From NCBI GenBank assembly GCA_025963715.1, contig JAOQAG010000048.1, positions 5,553-69,552 of the forward strand: a stretch of 64,000 bases of DNA. The letters are read 5' to 3'. Below the pieces are notes generated by a model that did not search any database, had not been told where the DNA came from, and saw only the letters and a list, made by a program, of their open reading frames with translations. The stretch is from Bacteroidota bacterium. Lineage in GTDB: Bacteria > Bacteroidota > Bacteroidia > 2-12-FULL-35-15. Both the position numbers and the translations under genes were made by a program. Below, piece after piece: positions 1,616-58,254 of the stretch. Each line of letters starts with the position of its first letter. Position 1 is the first letter of the stretch.

Positions 1616-2009
1616 AAAGAATAGTTCAAAGTTCAAAAGTTTAAAGTTCAAAGTTAGCTGTGTACGTGTAGGCGCTAGGCTCTGCCTAGTGACATTTAGT
1701 TTGTCACTAGGCAGAGCCTAGCGCCTACGATCACTCAATTCAAAGTTAGCTGTGTTTGCTACAAAAGAAATCAATTAATAAATTTAAAGATTTCAACGCT
1801 CAACTGTATTGTGTTTTCAGGCTTCGCCTTATGTGTTTCTTTGTACCTTATGTGATAGAAATTTTCGTACACAGCTTGCATGTAGTTTCGTTATCTGTAT
1901 TTTTTATTATCTTTGTTTTTGGATAAACAGAATACTAAATCAGAATACTAAAATTCACAAACTCCTGGTTTGTGCGTCATACTCTTACAAAACTTTTAAA
2001 CCAAAACTC

Positions 2010-13865: not shown

Positions 13866-14100
13866 GGTACGGATAACGCCCGCCTGAACGATTCGGGCAG
13901 GAACAGGAACGAAAAACGAATCTGAGGATCTACTAAATACCAATTATTACTAATATACCAATCTGTGTATTTGCTGTGTACAAATGTTTCTTTGGATCGT
14001 TACCATCTTACGAAGCTGTCATTCCGGGCCTGACCCGGGATCTCATAAATGTTTGCAGCGTTAATTCTTCGGCCTGTCTTGCTGATGCTACTGATCTTTG

Positions 14101-14216
14101 CCACAGATTCACAGATTTTTTATTTGGATTAAAATTTCACAGATGCATAAATCGCAAAGCGATTTGGAAGTATCCGCGTGAATTTTTGATTTCCTTTTTA
14201 ATCTGTGAATCTGTGG
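14101..14216. repeat. Second copy of the MITE-like 'ccacagattcacagat' TIR element (inverted orientation)
   Basis: 'ccacagattcacagat' at 14101 and 'atctgtgaatctgtgg' at 14201-14216. The interior matches the reverse complement of 4082-4167. Confidence 0.8.
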
Positions 14217-14333
14217 CTTCATTTTCTAACGATGCGTTGTCCTTCGGTATTCGTTGTAACTTCCTTCCGGAAATTTTTCCACAGCTTGATTTATCAATCA
14301 ATTTAAAGCGCCATTTGTGTGTATATTTGCACA

Positions 14334-16979
14334 ATGAGTCGCACCACCCTTTTTGTTGATGTAATTTTACCTTTAGCGGTTCCGAATTTATATACCTATC
14401 GCGTTCCATTCGACTGGAACGAGTCGGTAATTGTCGGGCAGCGCGTGATCGTACAATTCGGAAAAGGAAAATTATATTCGGCGCTGGTGCGCAGAGTTCA
14501 TGAACAACCTCCCAAAATTTACGAAGCAAAATACATTGATTCCATTTTGGATGAGTATCCGATTGTGAACGAAACACAATTTGCGTTATGGGAATGGATC
14601 AGCCAGTATTATATGTGTACGATCGGTGAAGTGATGCAGGCGGCATTACCCGGCGGATTGCGGCTGGCAAGCGAAACAAAGATCATTCTTAATCCCTCGT
14701 TTAATAATCAATCGGAAACGGAGCGCCCGCAGATCTTGATTTCCGATAAGGAATATTTGATCATGGATGCGCTGGAGATCCGGCAGGTATTAAGCATCAG
14801 CGATGTGTCGGAAATCCTTGATCAGAAAACAGTATATCCTGTGATCAAAAACATGATCGAAAAAGGAATTGTACTGATCCAGGAAGAGCTGAAAGAAAAA
14901 TACAAACCGAAGATCGAAAGCTTCGTCCGCTTTACGGAGCATGCAGAGCAGGAGGAAAATTTAAAAACCATTTTTGATTCGCTGGAAAAAAAAGCATCCA
15001 AACAGCTGGATGTGGTAATGGCGTTTATCAAACTTTCCGGCAGGTATTCCAAACAGATCAACGAAGTAAAAAAATCGGAGATTGTAAAATTGGTGGAAGG
15101 CGCCGATGCAGCAATAAAAGGATTGGCTAAAAAAAATATTTTTGAAATATACGAACGTGAAGTGGGGCGATTTGCTGCATACACCGGCGAATCAAGGGAT
15201 ACGCATCTGAATGAAATTCAGCAGCAGGTTTTTGATTCGATTAATGCGCAGTTTTTTACCGGACAAAAAGAGCAAGCTGCTAAGGATGTTGTTTTATTAC
15301 ACGGTGTTACATCATCCGGTAAAACCGAAATTTACATCAAGCTGATCGAGCAGGCCATTGCGCAGGGAAAACAAGTGTTGTACCTGTTGCCGGAAATTGC
15401 GCTGACAACACAGATCATCAATCGCCTGCGAAAATATTTTGGCGATGTGGTGGGTGTGTATCATAGTAAGTTTAATGAAAATGAAAGAGTAGAAGTATGG
15501 AACAATGTATTAAAAAGTTCCAATGCGGAAGTTCCAATGCGGAAGTTGGATGAGCTAAATGCAGAAAAAAAAGTTCAAAGTTCAAAGTTCAAAGTTGACG
15601 AACTAAACGCAGAAAAAAATACAGGATCAAACACAGAAACTTTAAAGGTTGAACTTTCCAACTTTAAACTTGTTGTTGGTGCGCGTTCCGCATTGTTTTT
15701 GCCATTCAGTAATTTAGGATTGGTGATCGTGGATGAGGAACATGATTCGTCGTACAAACAATACGATCCGGCGCCGCGCTACAATGCCCGTGATGGCGCA
15801 ATTTACCTGGCGCATCTGCACAAAGCAAAAACATTATTGGGATCGGCAACGCCCAGCATCGAAAGTTATTTTAATGCGCTGGAAGGCAAATACGGTTTTG
15901 CCGAAATGACCAAGCGTTTTGGTGGAATCCAGATGCCGGAGATCTTAATTTCAGATGTAAAAGAAGCGACGAAAAGGAAACAGATGAAATCGCATTTTTC
16001 GCCGATGCTGCTCGATCATGTGACTGCTGCGCTGGAAAATAAAGAGCAGGTGATTTTATTTCAAAACCGCAGAGGATTTGCACCGCAGCTGGAATGCAAT
16101 ACCTGCGCATGGGTGCCGCAATGTGTGAATTGCGATGTGAGCTTAACGTATCACAAAGCAAGCAATCAGCTGCGTTGTCATTATTGCGGATATACTTCCA
16201 AACCACCTGTAAAATGTGCCGCCTGCGGCGATACAGAATTAAAAATGAAAGGTTTTGGTACGGAAAAAATAGAAGAAGAATTGTCGATCTTTTATCCTAA
16301 AGCAAAAATTATGCGGATGGATCTGGATACCACGCGCAGTAAATTTGCGCACCAGCATATCATCCAGGATTTTGAAGATGGTAACATCGATATTTTGGTG
16401 GGAACGCAAATGGTAACCAAAGGATTGGATTTTGATAACGTGAGTTTGGTCGGAATTTTAAATGCGGACGGGATGCTTAATTTTCCTGACTTCCGTGCAT
16501 ACGAGCGCAGTTACCAGCTGATGGCGCAGGTATCGGGCAGGGCAGGGCGAAAAAATAAACGGGGGAAAGTAATTATCCAAACACAAAATCCGGATCACAG
16601 CATTATTCAGGATGTGTGGAACAATAATTATTTATCCATGTATACCAATGAATTGCTCGACAGGCGGAATTTTAATTATCCGCCTTATTTCCGGATCATT
16701 GAGATCACGCTGATCCATCGCGATGTGAACATGGTGAATGAATCGGCAAAATATTTTGCCAATGAATTAAAACATCATTTCGGTAAACGTGTGCTGGGCC
16801 CCGAATTTCCTATTGTTGCACGCGTTCGTAATTTATACCATAAAAATATTTTATTGAAGATCGAGCGGGATGCTTCTGCCTTGCAGGCGAAAAAAATTGT
16901 AGCAGACCTGCTGGTAAAATTCAAAGTGAATCCGGATTTTAAATCGGTAAGAGTGCAAATGGATGTGGATCCAATGTAG
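14334..16979 (+). CDS. priA: Primosomal protein N' (PriA helicase) carrying an in-frame ~50-aa repeat-derived insertion
   Basis: Walker A 'GVTSSGKTE', 'DEEH' box, Cys-rich zinc-binding region 'CNTCAWVPQCVNCDVSLTYH...CHYCGY...CAACG'. The ORF opens with GTG at 14319, and the likely ATG is at 14334. Confidence 0.9.
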   Translation: MSRTTLFVDVILPLAVPNLYTYRVPFDWNESVIVGQRVIVQFGKGKLYSALVRRVHEQPPKIYEAKYIDSILDEYPIVNETQFALWEWISQYYMCTIGEVMQAALPGGLRLASETKIILNPSFNNQSETERPQILISDKEYLIMDALEIRQVLSISDVSEILDQKTVYPVIKNMIEKGIVLIQEELKEKYKPKIESFVRFTEHAEQEENLKTIFDSLEKKASKQLDVVMAFIKLSGRYSKQINEVKKSEIVKLVEGADAAIKGLAKKNIFEIYEREVGRFAAYTGESRDTHLNEIQQQVFDSINAQFFTGQKEQAAKDVVLLHGVTSSGKTEIYIKLIEQAIAQGKQVLYLLPEIALTTQIINRLRKYFGDVVGVYHSKFNENERVEVWNNVLKSSNAEVPMRKLDELNAEKKVQSSKFKVDELNAEKNTGSNTETLKVELSNFKLVVGARSALFLPFSNLGLVIVDEEHDSSYKQYDPAPRYNARDGAIYLAHLHKAKTLLGSATPSIESYFNALEGKYGFAEMTKRFGGIQMPEILISDVKEATKRKQMKSHFSPMLLDHVTAALENKEQVILFQNRRGFAPQLECNTCAWVPQCVNCDVSLTYHKASNQLRCHYCGYTSKPPVKCAACGDTELKMKGFGTEKIEEELSIFYPKAKIMRMDLDTTRSKFAHQHIIQDFEDGNIDILVGTQMVTKGLDFDNVSLVGILNADGMLNFPDFRAYERSYQLMAQVSGRAGRKNKRGKVIIQTQNPDHSIIQDVWNNNYLSMYTNELLDRRNFNYPPYFRIIEITLIHRDVNMVNESAKYFANELKHHFGKRVLGPEFPIVARVRNLYHKNILLKIERDASALQAKKIVADLLVKFKVNPDFKSVRVQMDVDPM
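15514..15672 (+). repeat. Repeat-derived in-frame insertion within priA (direct repeats 'gaagttccaatgcg' x2, 'gagctaaatgcagaaaaaaa' x2, 'aaagttcaaagttcaaagttcaaagtt')
   Basis: Sequence composition matches the intergenic 'aaagttcaaagtt' repeat family. It translates to 'SSNAEVPMRKLDELNAEKKVQSSKFKVDELNAEK...' between conserved helicase blocks. Confidence 0.7.
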
Positions 16980-17082
16980 GGTATGGATCGTACGAATCTG
17001 TATCTACTAAATACCAATTTATACTAATATACCAATCTGTGTGTATGTTGTGTTTGATCCGGGGTGGGATTTATTCCTCGTC

Positions 17083-17180
17083 TTGTCATCCCGGACCTGA
17101 CCCGGGATCCGTCAATTAAAAACTAAAATCATCATCCTGCAAGCATTCATGAGATCCCGGGTCAGGCCCGGGATGACAGT
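17083..17180. repeat. Inverted-repeat hairpin element 'ctgtcatcccgg(a/g)cctgacccgggatc...gatcccgggtcaggcccgggatgacag'
   Basis: Two ~30-bp arms are reverse complements of each other around a ~40-bp spacer. A second full copy lies at 27388-27486, and half-copies at 14016-14057 and 30183-30226. Confidence 0.8.
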
Positions 17181-17356
17181 TTTTATAGTGATGTTATTTT
17201 AAGCAAACATCCAGCATCCACACAGATTAGTACATTCGTATTTATTCGTAATTCGTAACCATTCAGATTCGTAGTTTCGTTTCTGTTCGTTATTCGTAAC
17301 AAAAAAACGGAGCAGCTCCAACAGCCGCTCCGCACTCACAAACCACCACCCAAATT

Positions 17357-20126: not shown

Positions 20127-21425
20127 TTATTGTTTATTGAGTTGAATATAATTTAAAACCCCCTGAAAGTAGGCTTCTGCCACCTGCTGCACGCGTCCGT
20201 TTTTTGTTTTGTCCGTTTCCATACTCAGTAATTTTAATTCGCTGAGATTGTCCTGGAACAATGTTTCGCCGTATACAAGTGGCGAGTGGATGTATCGCGT
20301 TAACTGTAAGTTCCGGCAATACACGCCTTTTGTTTTTGTGGGTAAACAACCTTCTTTTAAATAATTGGCATCGGTAATACCAGCAGTCGGCACATTCAAT
20401 TTTTTTTCAAAACTATTGACAACACAGGTACTCAACCCGATTGATTTTTCCAGGTCGTCGGTAATTAATAAACGCAAAAACTCAAATCTTTTTTCCAGAC
20501 TTACCAAATCATTTTTCATAAACGCGCCTCCAACAAACGTCATGTCAAAATCACGATCGCCTGGCTTTTCCCATTCCTTGTTGGTTTCATCCACATTGTA
20601 ATGAATAATAATGGTAAGATCCGGTTTGTAATTATTGATGATCTCCGCGCGTTTTGCCAATTCCAGATCTTTAAAAATGATCCTGAAAATATCACGGTCC
20701 TGTGCTTTTGCACTTAATAAATATTGTTTTTGATTTGCTTTTAATTCTCCGATCTTATACAAACTATCCACTGCATTTTTCAGATCCTCTTTTTTCCATT
20801 GTGCGTAGGTTTTCCCAAATGCGGTGTTGCCGTTTTTGCGTGTTAAAAATACTTCCGCGCCTTCTTTTTCTAATTTTTCTTTTAGTAATTGTGCCGTTGC
20901 GTATGTTAGCATCCCTTCCGCGATCTCCATCGAATCAAGCAATCCGGCTGCCGTATCCGCTTTCATTTTAATGTGCTTTTTTTCGAGATCACCCATTTCA
21001 AAATCGTAGGCTATGTGCCCGGGATCAATCGCGATCTTTAAATGCTGCAGTTTTTTTATCCCGGAAGGATCGCCCGGTGGGGGTGGTGAGATCAGGAACA
21101 TACATGGAGCCGGTGCATCGTATATTTTGTTTTGATAGGTATTGAATGCAACGTCGGCCGGACAGTTTTTTAATTCAAATTTCAGTTCCGGTAAATCTTT
21201 CCAGCTAATCGTAAATTCAGCTTGCTGCATACTTTTATTTTGTGCAGATGCATACATTTTTATTCCATCCTTATCAATGGAATAAAAACCCGACAATGCT
21301 TTTTCCTTGTCTAAATACGTTTGTGCTTTTTCTGTATAATATTTAATGTTGGCTTGCACATCATTTATTTGTGCAAAAGAGGAAATGCTGATAAATAAGA
21401 AAAGAAAATGAATTCTGAATTTCAT
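20127..21425 (-). CDS. Secreted protein with a putative N-acetylmuramoyl-L-alanine amidase (Amidase_3-like) domain
   Basis: Signal peptide. 'IAIDPGH' and '...EGAEVFLTR' resemble the Zn-amidase motifs DxGHGG and V.LTR. Confidence 0.45.
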   Translation of the reverse strand: MKFRIHFLFLFISISSFAQINDVQANIKYYTEKAQTYLDKEKALSGFYSIDKDGIKMYASAQNKSMQQAEFTISWKDLPELKFELKNCPADVAFNTYQNKIYDAPAPCMFLISPPPPGDPSGIKKLQHLKIAIDPGHIAYDFEMGDLEKKHIKMKADTAAGLLDSMEIAEGMLTYATAQLLKEKLEKEGAEVFLTRKNGNTAFGKTYAQWKKEDLKNAVDSLYKIGELKANQKQYLLSAKAQDRDIFRIIFKDLELAKRAEIINNYKPDLTIIIHYNVDETNKEWEKPGDRDFDMTFVGGAFMKNDLVSLEKRFEFLRLLITDDLEKSIGLSTCVVNSFEKKLNVPTAGITDANYLKEGCLPTKTKGVYCRNLQLTRYIHSPLVYGETLFQDNLSELKLLSMETDKTKNGRVQQVAEAYFQGVLNYIQLNKQ

Positions 21426-21516
21426 AATGGAAGTATTCGTTTTGACGTTGAGATAAAAACGCTATCAAAAATAACGAAATTACAGATGAAGTAGTATTTA
21501 TGCTTAATTTTGTTTT

Positions 21517-22831: not shown

Positions 22832-22870
22832 AAATTCAACATCTGTATAGCAGATTCTAATTGAGTAAAA

Positions 22871-22934
22871 GTAGGCGCCAGGCTCTGCCTAGTGACACTC
22901 TAAATTTTGTCACTAGGCAGAGCCTAGCGCCTAC
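22871..22934. repeat. ~62-bp palindromic element 'gtaggcgc(c/t)aggctctgcctagtgaca...tgtcactaggcagagcctagcgcctac'
   Basis: Near-perfect long hairpin. Other copies at 1668-1728 and 33423-33485. Confidence 0.85.
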
Positions 22935-23126
22935 ATCGAAATAGCAAATTTAAAATTAGTTTTCTAATAAACAGATCCCGTGTCGTAGCACGGGATGACG
23001 ATCTGCGATAATGATTTGATTTCTTATTTAGCAACCGCAGCGTCTGCGCCCAGCAAACTTTTGAACCTTGAACTTTGAACTTTTTTGCACACAGCAAAAC
23101 TTTAAACTTTTGAACTTTAAACTCCC

Positions 23127-32972: not shown

Positions 32973-33422
32973 AAGAGAATTGTTTGGTTAGTGTAAGATC
33001 TGCTTTAAAAACGCCACAGGGCGCAATTAATCGCAATCGAGTGCACAAAGATACTGCGAATTTTAACGGCGCGGCAGAAAGCAGGGCGTGATAATATTCA
33101 CAACATATTAACTAAAAATAGTTCAAAGTTTAAAGTTCAAAAGTTTAATTTTGCTGTGCGGATAACGCCCGCCTGAACGATTCGGGCAGGAACAGGAACG
33201 AATATTACGAATCTGTGGATCTACTAAATACCAATTTGTACTAATATACTAATCTGTGTGGTATGGATAACGAACAGGAACAAAACTTCGAATCTGTGGA
33301 TCTACTAAATACCAATTTGTACTAATATACTAATCTGTGTGTTATACAGATAGCGAACAGAAATGAATATTACGAATCCGTGTGATACTGTGTGTGATTA
33401 ATTTAAAATTTGTTGTGTACAT

Positions 33423-33485
33423 GTAGTTGCCAGGCTCTGCCTGGTGACAAATATCGAATGTCACCAGGCAGAGCCTGGCGCCTGC
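33423..33485. repeat. Third copy of the ~62-bp palindromic element
   Basis: 'gttgccaggctctgcctggtgacaaatatcgaatgtcaccaggcagagcctggcgcctgc'. Confidence 0.8.
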
Positions 33486-33524
33486 TTAAAAACTTTGAGA
33501 TTAAAATTTTGAATTATAAAACGC

Positions 33525-39671: not shown

Positions 39672-40130
39672 ATAATTGATTGTTTCAATTTTTTGAAAGC
39701 ACTTTTCTCTAAGGAAAGTGCTTTTTCTTTTTAAAGAAGTTCAAAGTTTAAAGTTCAAAAGTTTAATTTTGCTGTACGGATAACGCCCGCCTGAACGATT
39801 CGGGCAGGAACAGGAACGAATATTACGAATCTGTATATCTACTATACTAATATTTACCAATATACTAATCGGTGTGTATTATCCGCTTTGCGTTTTTCTT
39901 TGCGCCTTCTTTGCGTTTTTGGCGTTTAGCTTTTTCTGCGTTTAGCGAACTTTGAACTTTAAACTTTTGAACTTTAAACTTATTTAGCTATTAACAATCT
40001 TTAGTTCGTAAAAACCGCTTTTCCAGCTTCGGCTTTTACCATTTTAACTCTTACTTCGTAAAGCCGGTTTGGCAACTTTGATCCCGATAGCTATCGGGAT
40101 TAAACTTTTGAACTTTAAACTAAAGAAAAG

Positions 40131-55775: not shown

Positions 55776-56771
55776 TTAAACTTTGAACTTCCCTCTATTA
55801 AACCATTCGAGTGTATATTTTAATCCTTCCTCGATTTTTATTGCCGGGGCATATCCCAACATATTTTTTGCTTTGGAAATATCTGCGAGTGAATCGCGGA
55901 TATCGCCTGCACGCTCAGCGCGATAGGTTGGATTTACTGCTGATCCGGTCAGATCTTTTAACGTATTGATCAATTTGTTCAATGAAATGCGATCACCGAC
56001 AGCGATGTTAAAAATATCGCCCTGCGTATTTGCAATTGGTGTAAGCATTGCTTTAACATTGGCTTGTACGGCATTGGCAACAAAAGTAAAATCGCGTGTT
56101 TGTTCGCCGTCGCCGTTAATTGCCGGTGCCTGGTCATTTAACAATGCGTTTATGAATAACGGGATCGCGGCAGCGTATTCGCCTTTCGGATTTTGTCGCG
56201 GCCCGAAAATATTAAAATAACGCAAGCCTACAATTTCCATGTTGTAAGTTTTGGCGAAAATTTCGCCGTACAGTTCATTCGTCATTTTTGAAACGGCATA
56301 GGGCGAAAGCAAGCGTCCCACCTGGTGTTCCACTTTCGGAAGAATAGGACTATCGCCGTAAACGGAAGATGAGCTGGCATACACTACACGTTTTACTTTT
56401 GCATCGCGTGCAGCGATAAGCATGTTTACAAAACCGGTTGCATTTACATTGTGTGTGGCAATCGGATTTAAAATAGAGCGGGGCACAGAACCCAATGCTG
56501 CCTGGTGAAACACATAATCCACACCGGCGCATGCTTTGCTGCAATCATCCGGGTTACAAATGTCGCCTTTGATGAATTGAAAATTTGGTAATGACAAAAA
56601 AGGCTGAATGTTATCTTCAAAGCCGGTGGAAAGATTATCGAGCACCACTACTTTTCCGGCTTTGTATTTAAACAGATATTCCACAATGTTGGAGCCGATA
56701 AAACCGGCACCACCCGTTACTAAAAACGTTTTGCCGGTAAGGTCTGCTGTATGAAATGGAGTAGTATACAT
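55776..56771 (-). CDS. NAD-dependent nucleotide-sugar 4-epimerase (WbpP/TviC/CapI-like)
   Basis: 'GGAGFIGSN' Rossmann motif, the catalytic 'YAVSK' YxxxK motif, 331 aa. Confidence 0.75.
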   Translation of the reverse strand: MYTTPFHTADLTGKTFLVTGGAGFIGSNIVEYLFKYKAGKVVVLDNLSTGFEDNIQPFLSLPNFQFIKGDICNPDDCSKACAGVDYVFHQAALGSVPRSILNPIATHNVNATGFVNMLIAARDAKVKRVVYASSSSVYGDSPILPKVEHQVGRLLSPYAVSKMTNELYGEIFAKTYNMEIVGLRYFNIFGPRQNPKGEYAAAIPLFINALLNDQAPAINGDGEQTRDFTFVANAVQANVKAMLTPIANTQGDIFNIAVGDRISLNKLINTLKDLTGSAVNPTYRAERAGDIRDSLADISKAKNMLGYAPAIKIEEGLKYTLEWFNRGKFKV

Positions 56772-57836: not shown

Positions 57837-57870
57837 TAATGTATCTGCTAAATACTAATTATTACTAATA

Positions 57871-58170
57871 TACTAATCTGTGTTGTCTACTAAATACGAA
57901 TTATTACTAATGTACCAATCTGTGTGTAACACACCCCTGGCCCCTCTCAAGAGGGGAATTGATCCTGCTATACTAATCTGTGTTGTCTACTAAATACGAA
58001 TTACTACTAATGTACCAATCTGTGTGTAACACACCCCTAGCCCCTCTCAAGAGGGGAATTGATCCTGCTATACTAATCTGTGTTGTCTACTAAATACGAA
58101 TTATTACTAATGTACCAATCTGTGTGTAACACACCCCTAGCCCCTCTCAAGAGGGGAATTGATCCTGCTA
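57871..58170. repeat. Tandem array: 3 copies of a 100-bp unit ('tactaatctgtgttgtctactaaatacgaatta.tactaatgtaccaatctgtgtgtaacacacccct.gcccctctcaagaggggaattgatcctgcta')
   Basis: Units start at 57871, 57971 and 58071 with 1-2 substitutions per copy. Each ends in the 'cccctctcaagagggg' hairpin. Confidence 0.9.
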
Positions 58171-58254
58171 ATGTTTAAATTTTAGTGCTTATTATAATTT
58201 CTTTTTTAACAAACACAGCAAACTTTGAACTTTAAACTTTTGAACTTTGAACTA

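What the first reader, a model, noticed from the sequence alone, without database searches (positions are those of the whole stretch)
15514..15672. Intergenic-type repeat inserted in-frame inside the essential helicase gene priA
Between the conserved PriA blocks '...EVWNNVLKS' and 'LVVGARSALFLPF' lies a ~50-codon stretch made of direct repeats ('gaagttccaatgcg' x2, 'ga[ga]ctaaa[tc]gcagaaaaaaa' x2) and 'aaagttcaaagttcaaagttcaaagtt'. These are the same motifs that populate intergenic spacers in this window. The reading frame is preserved, so PriA carries a low-complexity insertion ('KLDELNAEKKVQSSKFKVDELNAEKNTG...') in its helicase core.
Basis: seen in the sequence. Interest (0 to 1): 0.65.

Follow-up and report, generated by a model that had tools for sequence, protein, structure and literature searches.

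The report
Heptamer-repeat DNA inside the priA gene
A replication-restart helicase gene (priA) of an uncultured Bacteroidota bacterium carries about 46 extra, apparently unstructured codons. They are built from the same 7-base tandem repeats that fill this genome's intergenic spacers, and the same loop is remodelled in every related species, so it is a long-standing hypervariable site and not a recent one-off insertion.

Summary
Window 15514-15672 is an in-frame repeat patchwork inside priA (14334-16979). It contains a 14-nt tandem repeat, a 23-nt module duplicated 48 nt apart, a forward (AAAGTTC)x3.9 array and a reversed array.

The heptamer array, an array-CTGTGT junction and a CTAAACGCAGAAAAA module recur at the ends of this genome's intergenic mosaic elements. 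GAAGTTCCAATGCG is a local duplication found only in priA.

The loop between W389 and GARS is 59 aa here. It is 11-23 aa in 125 diverse PriAs. A confident AlphaFold model (pLDDT 91.9) is low-confidence only at residues 397-440.

The insert is not strain-specific. In 121 orthologues (71-95% identity) the loop spans 10-68 aa with 95 distinct sequences. Many encode the same arrays (KVQSSKF...TLNFELSNFKL) or other heptamers, and the loop varies even within 90%-identity clusters. The sister species shares the left half. The right half, which carries the element-end signature, was replaced in this lineage.

Best reading: a tolerated, translated, array-seeded surface loop that evolves by slippage, duplication and re-seeding. 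It is analogous to Rickettsia palindromic elements but belongs to the heptanucleotide-repeat class.

The same 26-mer sits in-frame in many unrelated genes in metagenomes, so priA is not special.

The parts
14334..16979 (+). priA coding sequence. Start is ATG 14334; the deposited protein starts at GTG 14319. Stop codon included.
   Evidence: ORF. Pfam architecture PriA_3primeBD/DEAD/Zn_ribbon_PriA/Helicase_C/PriA_C in orthologues. PDB PriA E=1e-112. AF2 model matches 6DGD/8FAK/4NL4 at E about 1e-55. Identical to MCW3086078.1.
15514..15659 (+). Extra, repeat-built segment of the loop, about 46-48 codons (residues about 394-442).
   Evidence: No counterpart in E. coli PriA or in 150 representatives. 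Holds all 32 gap columns and shows 67% nt identity against the sister species, versus 90.4% identity and 0 gaps in the rest of the gene.
15522..15653 (+). Codons for residues 397-440, the only low-confidence (pLDDT<50) part of the PriA model.
   Evidence: AF2 with a 136-sequence alignment: mean pLDDT 91.9, pTM 0.89. The only segments below 50 are 397-409 and 411-440, lying between helix 382-393 and strand 446-449.
15515..15547 (+). 14-nt tandem repeat AAGTTCCAATGCGG x2.4, encoding SSNAEVPMRKL. A local duplication, not an intergenic motif.
   Evidence: TRF 100% match. The motif is found nowhere else in the window. It is shared with sister species L080.
15549..15571 (+). Module copy 1, GATGAGCTAAATGCAGAAAAAAA (DELNAEK).
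   Evidence: Direct repeat D2. Its GCAGAAAAA is absent from L080, a 9-nt indel.
15570..15596 (+). Forward heptamer array (AAAGTTC)x3.9, encoding KVQSSKFKV. This unit is stop-free in all three frames.
   Evidence: TRF. Enrichment 35 versus 0.7 expected. Frame analysis.
15597..15619 (+). Module copy 2, GACGAACTAAACGCAGAAAAAAA. Together with the array to its left it matches an intergenic element end.
   Evidence: 49-nt local alignment to the reverse complement of about 39931-39976, covering array plus CTAAACGCAGAAAAA. Exact 15-mer at 39931-39945(-).
15631..15642 (-). Array-CTGTGT junction (AAGTTTCTGTGT), the signature of the inner end of intergenic array modules.
   Evidence: AAGTT-N1-9-CTGTGT occurs 10 times against 0.23 expected. 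All hits other than this one lie in intergenic elements. It is absent from the L080 priA insert.
15638..15659 (+). Reversed, degenerate heptamer array AACTTTAAAGGTTGAACTTTCC, encoding TLKVELS. The 8-nt step CTTTCCAAC keeps it free of stop codons.
   Evidence: Inverted repeats I1/I2, 85% complementary over 20 nt. The same LSNFKL step is present in many orthologues.
15660..15671 (+). AACTTTAAACTT (NFKL), probably native priA codons that happen to resemble the array.
   Evidence: 111 of 121 family loops end in a matching hydrophobic-basic-hydrophobic tail, and the alignments show that insert-less members such as P0004, P0025, P0060 and P0064 share it.
39886..39981 (-). Closest intergenic comparator: heptamer array, then GCTAAACGCAGAAAAA, then CTTTGCG-type units. 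It forms the right end of the mosaic element 39737-39981.
16980..17300 (.). 320-nt mosaic palindromic element immediately after the priA stop codon. It is absent from the sister species.
   Evidence: WIN versus L080 comparison.

Best explanation
The segment is heptanucleotide-repeat DNA lodged in a permissive surface turn of PriA helicase lobe 1. The turn lies between the helix ERVEVWNNVL and the strand LVVGARS.

An ancestor of this Bacteroidota family acquired an inverted pair of about 4-unit heptamer arrays in this turn. The forward array lies on the left and encodes KVQSSKF. The reversed array lies on the right and encodes TLNFELS.

The forward unit has no stop codon in any frame. The reversed arm survives because an 8-nt step shifts it past its TGA/TAA codons. 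The result is translated as a hydrophilic, disordered loop that does not disturb the fold.

Since then the site has behaved as a microsatellite-like hot spot. It changes by replication slippage in in-frame units of 15 nt (7+8) or 21 nt, by local duplications (here 14 nt x2.4 and a 48-nt duplication), by decay, by deletion and by replacement. In this lineage the right half was replaced by, or converted to, sequence carrying the end signature of the genome's proliferating intergenic mosaic elements.

Shown: the repeats, the frame, the extra length, the shared modules, the hypervariability between and within species, and the localisation of low model confidence to the insert.

Inferred: origin by insertion, neutrality for PriA function, and gene-conversion-like re-seeding.
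For: - Anatomy and enrichment.
- Extra relative to baseline: loop 59 aa versus 11-23 aa in 125 representatives. phmmer alignments split at the insert in 150 of 150. No counterpart in E. coli PriA.
- Disordered excursion: AF2 pLDDT 91.9 overall, below 50 only at residues 397-440. The fold matches solved PriA structures.
- Hypervariability: 10-68 aa and 95 distinct loops in 121 sequences. Presence/absence, replacement and 5-aa copy-number changes occur within 90%-identity clusters.
- Same architecture at the DNA level in about 73%-identical species (L088, L041, L009), with the shared CTTTCCAAC step.
- Other heptamers occupy the same site in other lineages: AAATCCA, GAGTTnn/nnAACTC, CCAACAA.
- Versus the sister species, the rest of priA is 90.4% identical with no gaps. 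The insert is 67% identical and holds every gap. The left half is conserved and the right half replaced.
- The element-end junction is present in this priA but not in the sister's.
- Intergenic elements are recent in this lineage; for example, the 320-nt insert after the priA stop is absent in the sister.
- Generality: the same 26-mer lies in frame in PolA, UvrA, CarA/B, enolase, MnmA, ArgS, ValS, Mur ligases and others in metagenomes.
Against: - No target-site duplication or defined element boundary was found.
- The insert in this genome has no better-than-random hairpin (z -0.3 to -0.6), so a mobile palindromic element is inferred only from orthologues where the arms are intact (z -4.4).
- Relatives with arrays in priA lack them in flanking spacers. 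The direction of transfer between priA and intergenic DNA is therefore unresolved, and in-situ origin from native KS.../NFKL codons is not excluded.
- Neutrality is inferred from variability, not measured.
Confidence: 0.7

Rival explanations
1. Pure in-situ microsatellite. The loop grew by slippage-driven amplification of native codons (AAR TCN AAR GTN... / AAY TTY AAR YTN). Nothing was inserted. The resemblance to intergenic arrays only reflects a genome-wide mutational bias that makes the same heptamer arrays everywhere.
For: - NFKL is native and already resembles the array.
- Different lineages carry different heptamers at the same site.
- Copy number changes in 15-nt steps within species.
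- Relatives carry priA arrays without nearby intergenic arrays.
- Array-rich metagenome loci carry many different heptamers, each of about 4-5 units, as a local process would produce.
Against: - This priA shares non-array sequence with intergenic elements: an exact 15-mer next to the array in the same order, and the array-CTGTGT junction.
- The arms are inverted, which simple slippage does not produce.
- An A/T-rich 26-mer array sits inside genes of 66-67% GC contigs.
Confidence: 0.2
2. Adaptive hypervariable or contingency locus. The arrays are kept in priA either because frameshifting by plus or minus one heptamer switches PriA off and on, or because a rapidly changing surface loop escapes a phage factor that targets or hijacks PriA.
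For: - Four hypervariable loops in this PriA family.
- Period-7 arrays at 0.32 per kb in priA against 0.026 per kb in other coding DNA of the same loci.
- Polymorphism within species.
- A unit length that is not a multiple of 3.
Against: - Tracts are short (at most 4 perfect units here) and interrupted.
- No frameshifted allele was seen.
- The priA enrichment is confounded by shared ancestry of the site.
- The same arrays lie in frame in about 25 unrelated housekeeping genes, and none of 39 genic metagenome hits is priA.
- Loop composition is low-complexity, with no conserved motif.
Confidence: 0.07
3. Assembly or sequencing artefact: a repeat-induced chimeric join or collapsed repeat inside priA in a metagenome-assembled genome.
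For: The window comes from a MAG that is rich in dispersed repeats.
Against: - An independent Logan assembly of SRR13312996 is identical over 2,971 nt, including the insert.
- The reading frame is intact.
- The sister species and dozens of orthologues from other studies carry homologous inserts at the same codon positions.
Confidence: 0.01

Closest known systems
Heptanucleotide simple-sequence repeats. These include the STRR of heterocystous cyanobacteria (Mazel 1990, cited from my own knowledge), long SSRs (Mrazek 2007, as cited in PMC4679880), GGGAATC repeats of Xanthomonas/Nostoc (Rehm 2015, PMC4692102) and TAACTGA repeats of Beggiatoaceae, Cyanobacteria and some Bacteroidetes (MacGregor 2015, PMC4679880).
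   Same: - 7-nt unit.
- Strong genome-wide over-representation.
- Preferred size of about 4 units.
- Position within a few bases of stop codons on the sense strand.
- Frequent inverted pairs.
- Strain-to-strain copy-number change.
   Different: - Those repeats are described as intergenic and under-represented in coding DNA. Here an inverted pair is translated inside a conserved helicase and has persisted across a family.
- The unit is A/T-rich, so the G-quadruplex rationale for 4 units cannot apply.
- In this genome the arrays form the ends of larger mosaic palindromic elements.
Rickettsia palindromic elements (RPE; Ogata et al. 2000, from my own knowledge; discussed in PMC1779305 and PMC10969869).
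   Same: Repeated DNA that also lives in intergenic regions is inserted in frame into conserved, even indispensable, genes. It is translated and tolerated because it lands in surface loops. It has inverted-repeat architecture.
   Different: - RPEs are 100-150-bp elements with a family consensus. Here only short modules are shared.
- The copy in this genome no longer folds better than random.
- The site is hypervariable rather than a fixed insertion.
- The phylum is different.
REP/BIME/REPIN and bacterial MITEs (PMC3116915, PMC3733652, PMC10969869).
   Same: The intergenic elements of this window are mosaic, palindromic, short, non-coding and evidently mobile, since they are present here and absent at syntenic sites in the sister species.
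   Different: - No cognate transposase was identified.
- No target-site duplication could be established.
- The priA copy is coding.
SSR-based contingency (phase-variable) loci of host-adapted pathogens.
   Same: A tandem repeat with a unit that is not a multiple of three lies inside an ORF. Copy number differs among close relatives.
   Different: - The tract is short and impure.
- All observed changes are in frame.
- The gene is a housekeeping replication-restart helicase.
- No on/off variants were seen.

Membership tests
Heptanucleotide simple-sequence repeats (STRR / long SSR class) | Head-to-tail copies of a 7-nt unit | tested here: met
   TRF: (AAAGTTC)x3.9, 100% matches, 15570-15596.
Heptanucleotide simple-sequence repeats (STRR / long SSR class) | Over-represented in the genome relative to chance | tested here: met
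   35 hits against 0.7 expected.
Heptanucleotide simple-sequence repeats (STRR / long SSR class) | Preferred array size of about 4 units | tested here: met
   3.9 units here. In metagenome loci, 73 of 184 other period-7 arrays have 4.0-4.9 units and 87 of 184 are 27-35 nt long.
Heptanucleotide simple-sequence repeats (STRR / long SSR class) | Intergenic location close to gene ends | tested here: not met
   The other arrays of the window meet it. The priA copy is internal to a coding sequence, which is the unusual point.
Heptanucleotide simple-sequence repeats (STRR / long SSR class) | Copy-number polymorphism among close relatives | tested here: met
   Changes of 5 aa (15 nt) and presence/absence within 90%-identity clusters of orthologues. 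Not testable for this strain itself.
Rickettsia palindromic elements | Element of 100-150 bp with a consensus shared by all copies | tested here: not met
   Only the array, a 15-mer module and a 12-nt junction are shared with other copies.
Rickettsia palindromic elements | Palindromic sequence folding into a stable hairpin | tested here: not met
   z = -0.3 (RNA), -0.4 (DNA) and -0.6 for this insert. Met in orthologues L088 and L086 (z = -4.4).
Rickettsia palindromic elements | In-frame insertion in a conserved ORF, translated, at the protein surface | tested here: met
   ORF intact. Low pLDDT only at residues 397-440 in an otherwise confident model. Natural length variation of 10-68 aa. Surface exposure itself is inferred.
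MITE / REPIN | Terminal inverted repeats | tested here: inconclusive
   Arms of 20 nt are 85% complementary, but they are low-complexity arrays.
MITE / REPIN | Target-site duplication and a cognate transposase (IS or RAYT) | tested here: inconclusive
   No duplication was recognisable at the priA site or at the 16980-17300 insertion, though a possible TA could not be excluded. Transposase genes were not searched for.
PriA (primosomal protein N') | 3'BD, winged helix, two RecA-like lobes with a Cys-rich zinc ribbon, C-terminal domain; Walker A and DEEH motifs | tested here: met
   Pfam domains of orthologues. GVTSSGKTE and VDEEHD seen. PDB PriA E=1e-112. Foldseek to 6DGD/8FAK/4NL4 at E about 1e-55.
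SSR contingency locus | Frameshifting length variants in the population that switch the gene off and on | not testable with these tools
   Needs read-level data. Only intact alleles are visible in protein databases.

The most novel reading that the evidence does not exclude
The priA loop may be one visible scar of a dedicated, heptamer-specific DNA-writing or repair process found in several phyla. That process would lay down about 4-5 copies (about 30-33 nt) of a 7-nt unit at a lesion, inside genes as well as between them. Selection would then keep only the in-frame, stop-free products in permissive loops.

The quantised size holds whatever the unit sequence. The same arrays occur inside UvrA, PolA, CarB, enolase, tRNA synthetases and other genes in contigs of 29-68% GC. 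Both points would then reflect a mechanism, such as a polymerase footprint or templated fill-in, and not ordinary slippage.
Probability: 0.15. Interest if true: 0.85.

Novelty: new variant of a known kind. Interest (0 to 1): 0.5.

Why it matters
The result shows that heptanucleotide arrays, so far treated as intergenic curiosities, can be translated. They can persist for long evolutionary times inside a conserved replication-restart helicase, producing a loop that differs in almost every species and even within species.

This gives a Bacteroidota counterpart to the Rickettsia palindromic elements. It also provides a natural map of insertion-tolerant sites in PriA, at about residues 125, 241, 308 and 398.

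The metagenome scan shows that in-frame arrays of about 30 nt are widespread in housekeeping genes. The size preference of 4-5 units holds for A/T-rich units. This questions the G-quadruplex explanation and makes the mechanism of array formation a testable problem.

Tried and rejected
1. A stable RNA or DNA hairpin in this insert: not better than shuffles.
2. A known RNA family: no Rfam hit in the whole window.
3. First AlphaFold run with 63 close orthologues: pLDDT 60, unusable. It was replaced by a run with 136 diverse sequences.
4. 'priA is a special target of arrays': the 12-fold excess over other coding DNA in family loci is confounded by inheritance of one site. It is not seen in an unbiased metagenome sample, where 0 of 39 genic hits are priA.
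5. A strict regex for AAGTTCA arrays suggested that relatives have none in spacers. Direct reading showed that the sister species has degenerate arrays at some syntenic spacers, so absence claims are limited to intact arrays.
6. Target-site duplication at the 320-nt element after priA: a TA is possible, but the result is inconclusive.
7. The only other coding indel between this genome and its sister (amidase gene 20130-21461) is not array-derived.
8. The exact sequence of the ATG-started protein is not in the protein collection. The GTG-started form is, as P0121.
Full report
**What is there.** Window 15514-15672 lies inside one long ORF (14319/14334-16979, + strand), and that ORF is PriA. It has the PriA domain set in orthologues, matches solved PriA chains at E=1e-112, and its model superposes on 6DGD, 8FAK and 4NL4. 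From the GTG start the protein is identical to MCW3086078.1, 'MAG: primosomal protein [Bacteroidetes bacterium]', so the window comes from a metagenome-assembled genome.

The stretch is a patchwork of repeats:
- a perfect 14-nt tandem repeat x2.4 at 15515-15547;
- a 23-nt module present twice, 48 nt apart, at 15549 and 15597;
- a perfect (AAAGTTC)x3.9 array at 15570-15596;
- a degenerate reversed array at 15638-15659, followed by AACTTTAAACTT.

An independent Logan assembly of run SRR13312996 reproduces 14193-17163 without a mismatch. It is therefore not an assembly artefact.

**Relation to the intergenic repeats.** AAGTTCAAAGTT with at most 1 mismatch occurs 35 times in the window against 0.7 expected. 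Apart from the four priA hits and the last codons of one other gene (55776-56771, ending ...KFKV*), all are in spacers.

In the spacers the arrays form the outer modules of mosaic palindromic elements, for example 39737-39981 and 33120-33522. They usually begin 0-8 nt after a stop codon, in the stop-free orientation relative to the upstream gene.

Two further features tie the priA segment to these elements:
- The array plus CTAAACGCAGAAAAA aligns over 49 nt with the end of the element at 39931-39976(-).
- The junction AAGTT-N1-9-CTGTGT occurs 10 times against 0.23 expected. One hit is at 15631-15642(-) in priA and all the others are in intergenic elements.

By contrast, GAAGTTCCAATGCG is found only in priA. 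It is a local duplication, not an intergenic motif.

**It is extra, and it is a disordered loop.** The alignment to E. coli PriA simply skips residues 400-441. All 150 representatives from a 1.8-billion-protein library (42-56% identity, typically 810-830 aa) align in two pieces that break at the insert.

In 125 of those representatives the stretch between the conserved W and GARS is 11-23 aa (median 13), against 59 aa here.

An AlphaFold2 model built on 136 diverse sequences is confident (mean pLDDT 91.9, pTM 0.89). Its only segments below pLDDT 50 are residues 397-409 and 411-440, between helix 382-393 and strand 446-449 of helicase lobe 1. A first model from close orthologues only was unusable.

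The insert lies upstream of the DEEH motif, in a helix-to-strand turn. Calling this the 'helicase core' overstates its location. Surface exposure is inferred from the low model confidence and the natural length variation. It was not measured on coordinates.

**It is not strain-specific.** In 121 family members (71-95% identity) this loop ranges from 10 to 68 aa, with 95 distinct sequences.
- Many loops read ...SKFKVQSSK...TLNFELSNFKL, the translation of the same forward and reversed arrays.
- At the DNA level, species about 73% identical (L088/L007, L041, L009) have AAAGTTCAAAGTTCAAAGTT ... AACTTTAAACTTTGAACTTTCCAACTTTAAACT at the same position. They share the 8-nt step CTTTCCAAC, which moves the reversed arm past its TGA/TAA codons.
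- The forward unit is stop-free in all three frames, and the reversed unit is not.
- Other lineages hold other heptamers at the same site: (AAATCCA)4.7 in L087; (GAGTTnn)5 facing (nnAACTC)16 in L086; and CCAACAA and AAGTCAA in others.
- Where the arms are intact they form strong hairpins (z=-4.4 in L088 and L086). In this genome and several others they have decayed (z -0.1 to -1.6).
- Within 90%-identity clusters the loop shows presence/absence, wholesale replacement and 5-aa (15 nt = 7+8) copy-number steps.
- Three further loops of PriA (about residues 125, 241 and 308) are also length-variable in the family. Site 308 carries the same kinds of array-derived peptides.
- The terminal NFKL is native, because insert-less orthologues have it too.

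**History in this lineage.** The sister species (GCA_900291705.1, L080) is 90.4% identical across priA with no gap outside the insert. The insert is 67% identical and contains all 32 gap columns of the gene.
- The left half (the 14-nt duplication, the forward array and the module) is shared with the sister apart from a 9-nt indel, so it predates the split.
- The right half (15621-15659), which carries the array-CTGTGT signature, is unrelated to the sister's sequence.
- At syntenic spacers the sister lacks most of the mosaic elements of this genome. One example is the 320-nt element that starts at the priA stop codon.
- Among about 17 syntenic genes, only priA and one amidase gene have indels of 3 aa or more, and the amidase indel is not array-derived.

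My reading is that an old array-seeded loop was partly overwritten in this lineage from the expanding intergenic family. The direction and mechanism of that event are inferred.

- Of the 80 loci returned (29-68% GC), 39 have the array inside an ORF of at least 250 aa.
- Pfam confirmed bona fide genes in 28 of the 29 distinct ORFs tested: PolA 5'-3' exonuclease, UvrA, CarA, CarB, enolase, MnmA (twice), ArgS, ValS, MoaA, RseP, Mur ligases, PolX, LarC, IspD and others. None is priA.
- In the cases checked (MnmA, PolX), the Pfam domain spanning the array is 11-14 residues longer than its profile.
- These loci are full of other period-7 arrays of many different units, with a clear mode at 4.0-4.9 units (27-35 nt).
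- The literature describes heptanucleotide repeats in Xanthomonas, Nostoc, Beggiatoaceae and a few Bacteroidetes. It reports a preference for four units, a position within 50 bp of stop codons, inverted pairs and under-representation in coding DNA (PMC4692102, PMC4679880).

The priA case therefore belongs to that class. What differs is that it is translated and has persisted as a hypervariable loop.

The 12-fold excess of arrays in priA over other coding DNA in the family loci is confounded by inheritance of the site. The metagenome sample does not support it as a priA-specific effect.

The most likely mechanism is tolerated repeat DNA that evolves by slippage, duplication, decay and occasional re-seeding, with no role in PriA function (confidence about 0.7). 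In-situ microsatellite growth without any transfer is the main rival (about 0.2). An adaptive or phase-variable role is unlikely (about 0.07). An artefact is excluded for practical purposes.

From my own knowledge, priA is not strictly essential in E. coli, although null mutants are very sick, so 'essential' is also somewhat overstated.

Noticed in passing
window 13866-14330, 16980-17300, 33120-33522, 39737-39981, 57844-58254 and most other spacers: Intergenic spacers are filled with mosaic palindromic elements. Their outer modules are heptamer arrays of two families: (AAGTTCA/AAGTTTA)n and (TACGAAT)n plus (ACTAAT)n. Their inner ends share CTGTGTG/CACACAG. They include 81-nt x2.3 and 100-nt x3 tandem blocks. 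No transposase was identified.
   Followed up: partly
window 16977-17300 versus L080 12656-12716: A 320-nt mosaic element begins exactly at the priA stop codon (TAG here, TAA in the sister species) and is absent from the sister. This suggests recent mobility and perhaps insertion at or inside stop codons. A TA target duplication could not be established.
   Followed up: partly
window 1622, 11870, 23097, 29221, 33486, 39737, 47194, 58220, 55776: Arrays next to stop codons are all in the stop-free 'forward' orientation relative to the upstream gene. Most lie 0-8 nt from the stop. One gene (55776-56771, - strand) ends in array-coded ...KFKV*.
   Followed up: partly
window 1665-1735, 22870-22935, 33430-33485: Long, nearly perfect GC-rich hairpins of one family (TAGGCGCyAGGCTCTGCCTAGTGACA ... 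TGTCACTAGGCAGAGCCTAGCGCCTA) sit inside the mosaic elements.
   Followed up: no
L090-L169 (metagenome loci): Period-7 arrays of many unrelated units cluster at 4.0-4.9 copies (27-35 nt) and far outnumber other periods (284 TRF rows against 90 for period 9). The size preference holds for A/T-rich units, which argues against the G-quadruplex explanation offered for GGGAATC repeats.
   Followed up: partly
L110, L091, L142, L151, L153, L149, L111, L133, L140, L114 and others: The identical (AAGTTCA)n 26-mer lies in frame inside conserved housekeeping genes (UvrA, PolA exonuclease, enolase, CarB, ArgS, MnmA, PolX, LarC, Mur ligase). These include contigs of 66-67% GC, where such an A/T-rich tract is compositionally foreign.
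   Followed up: partly
L086 5260-8019 (GCA_036170475.1 priA): One orthologous priA holds five heptamer arrays at two loops. These include a 16-unit (AACTCAn) array organised as 39 nt x3.6, giving a 13-aa x3 protein repeat, and a perfect inverted pair (z=-4.4).
   Followed up: partly
PriA family alignment, residues about 123-130, 241, 308: Three additional length-hypervariable loops exist in this PriA family. Site 308, just before the Walker A strand, carries VQSSKFKV, ESSKLKVESS and NQQPTTN peptides in many members, but is short in this genome.
   Followed up: partly
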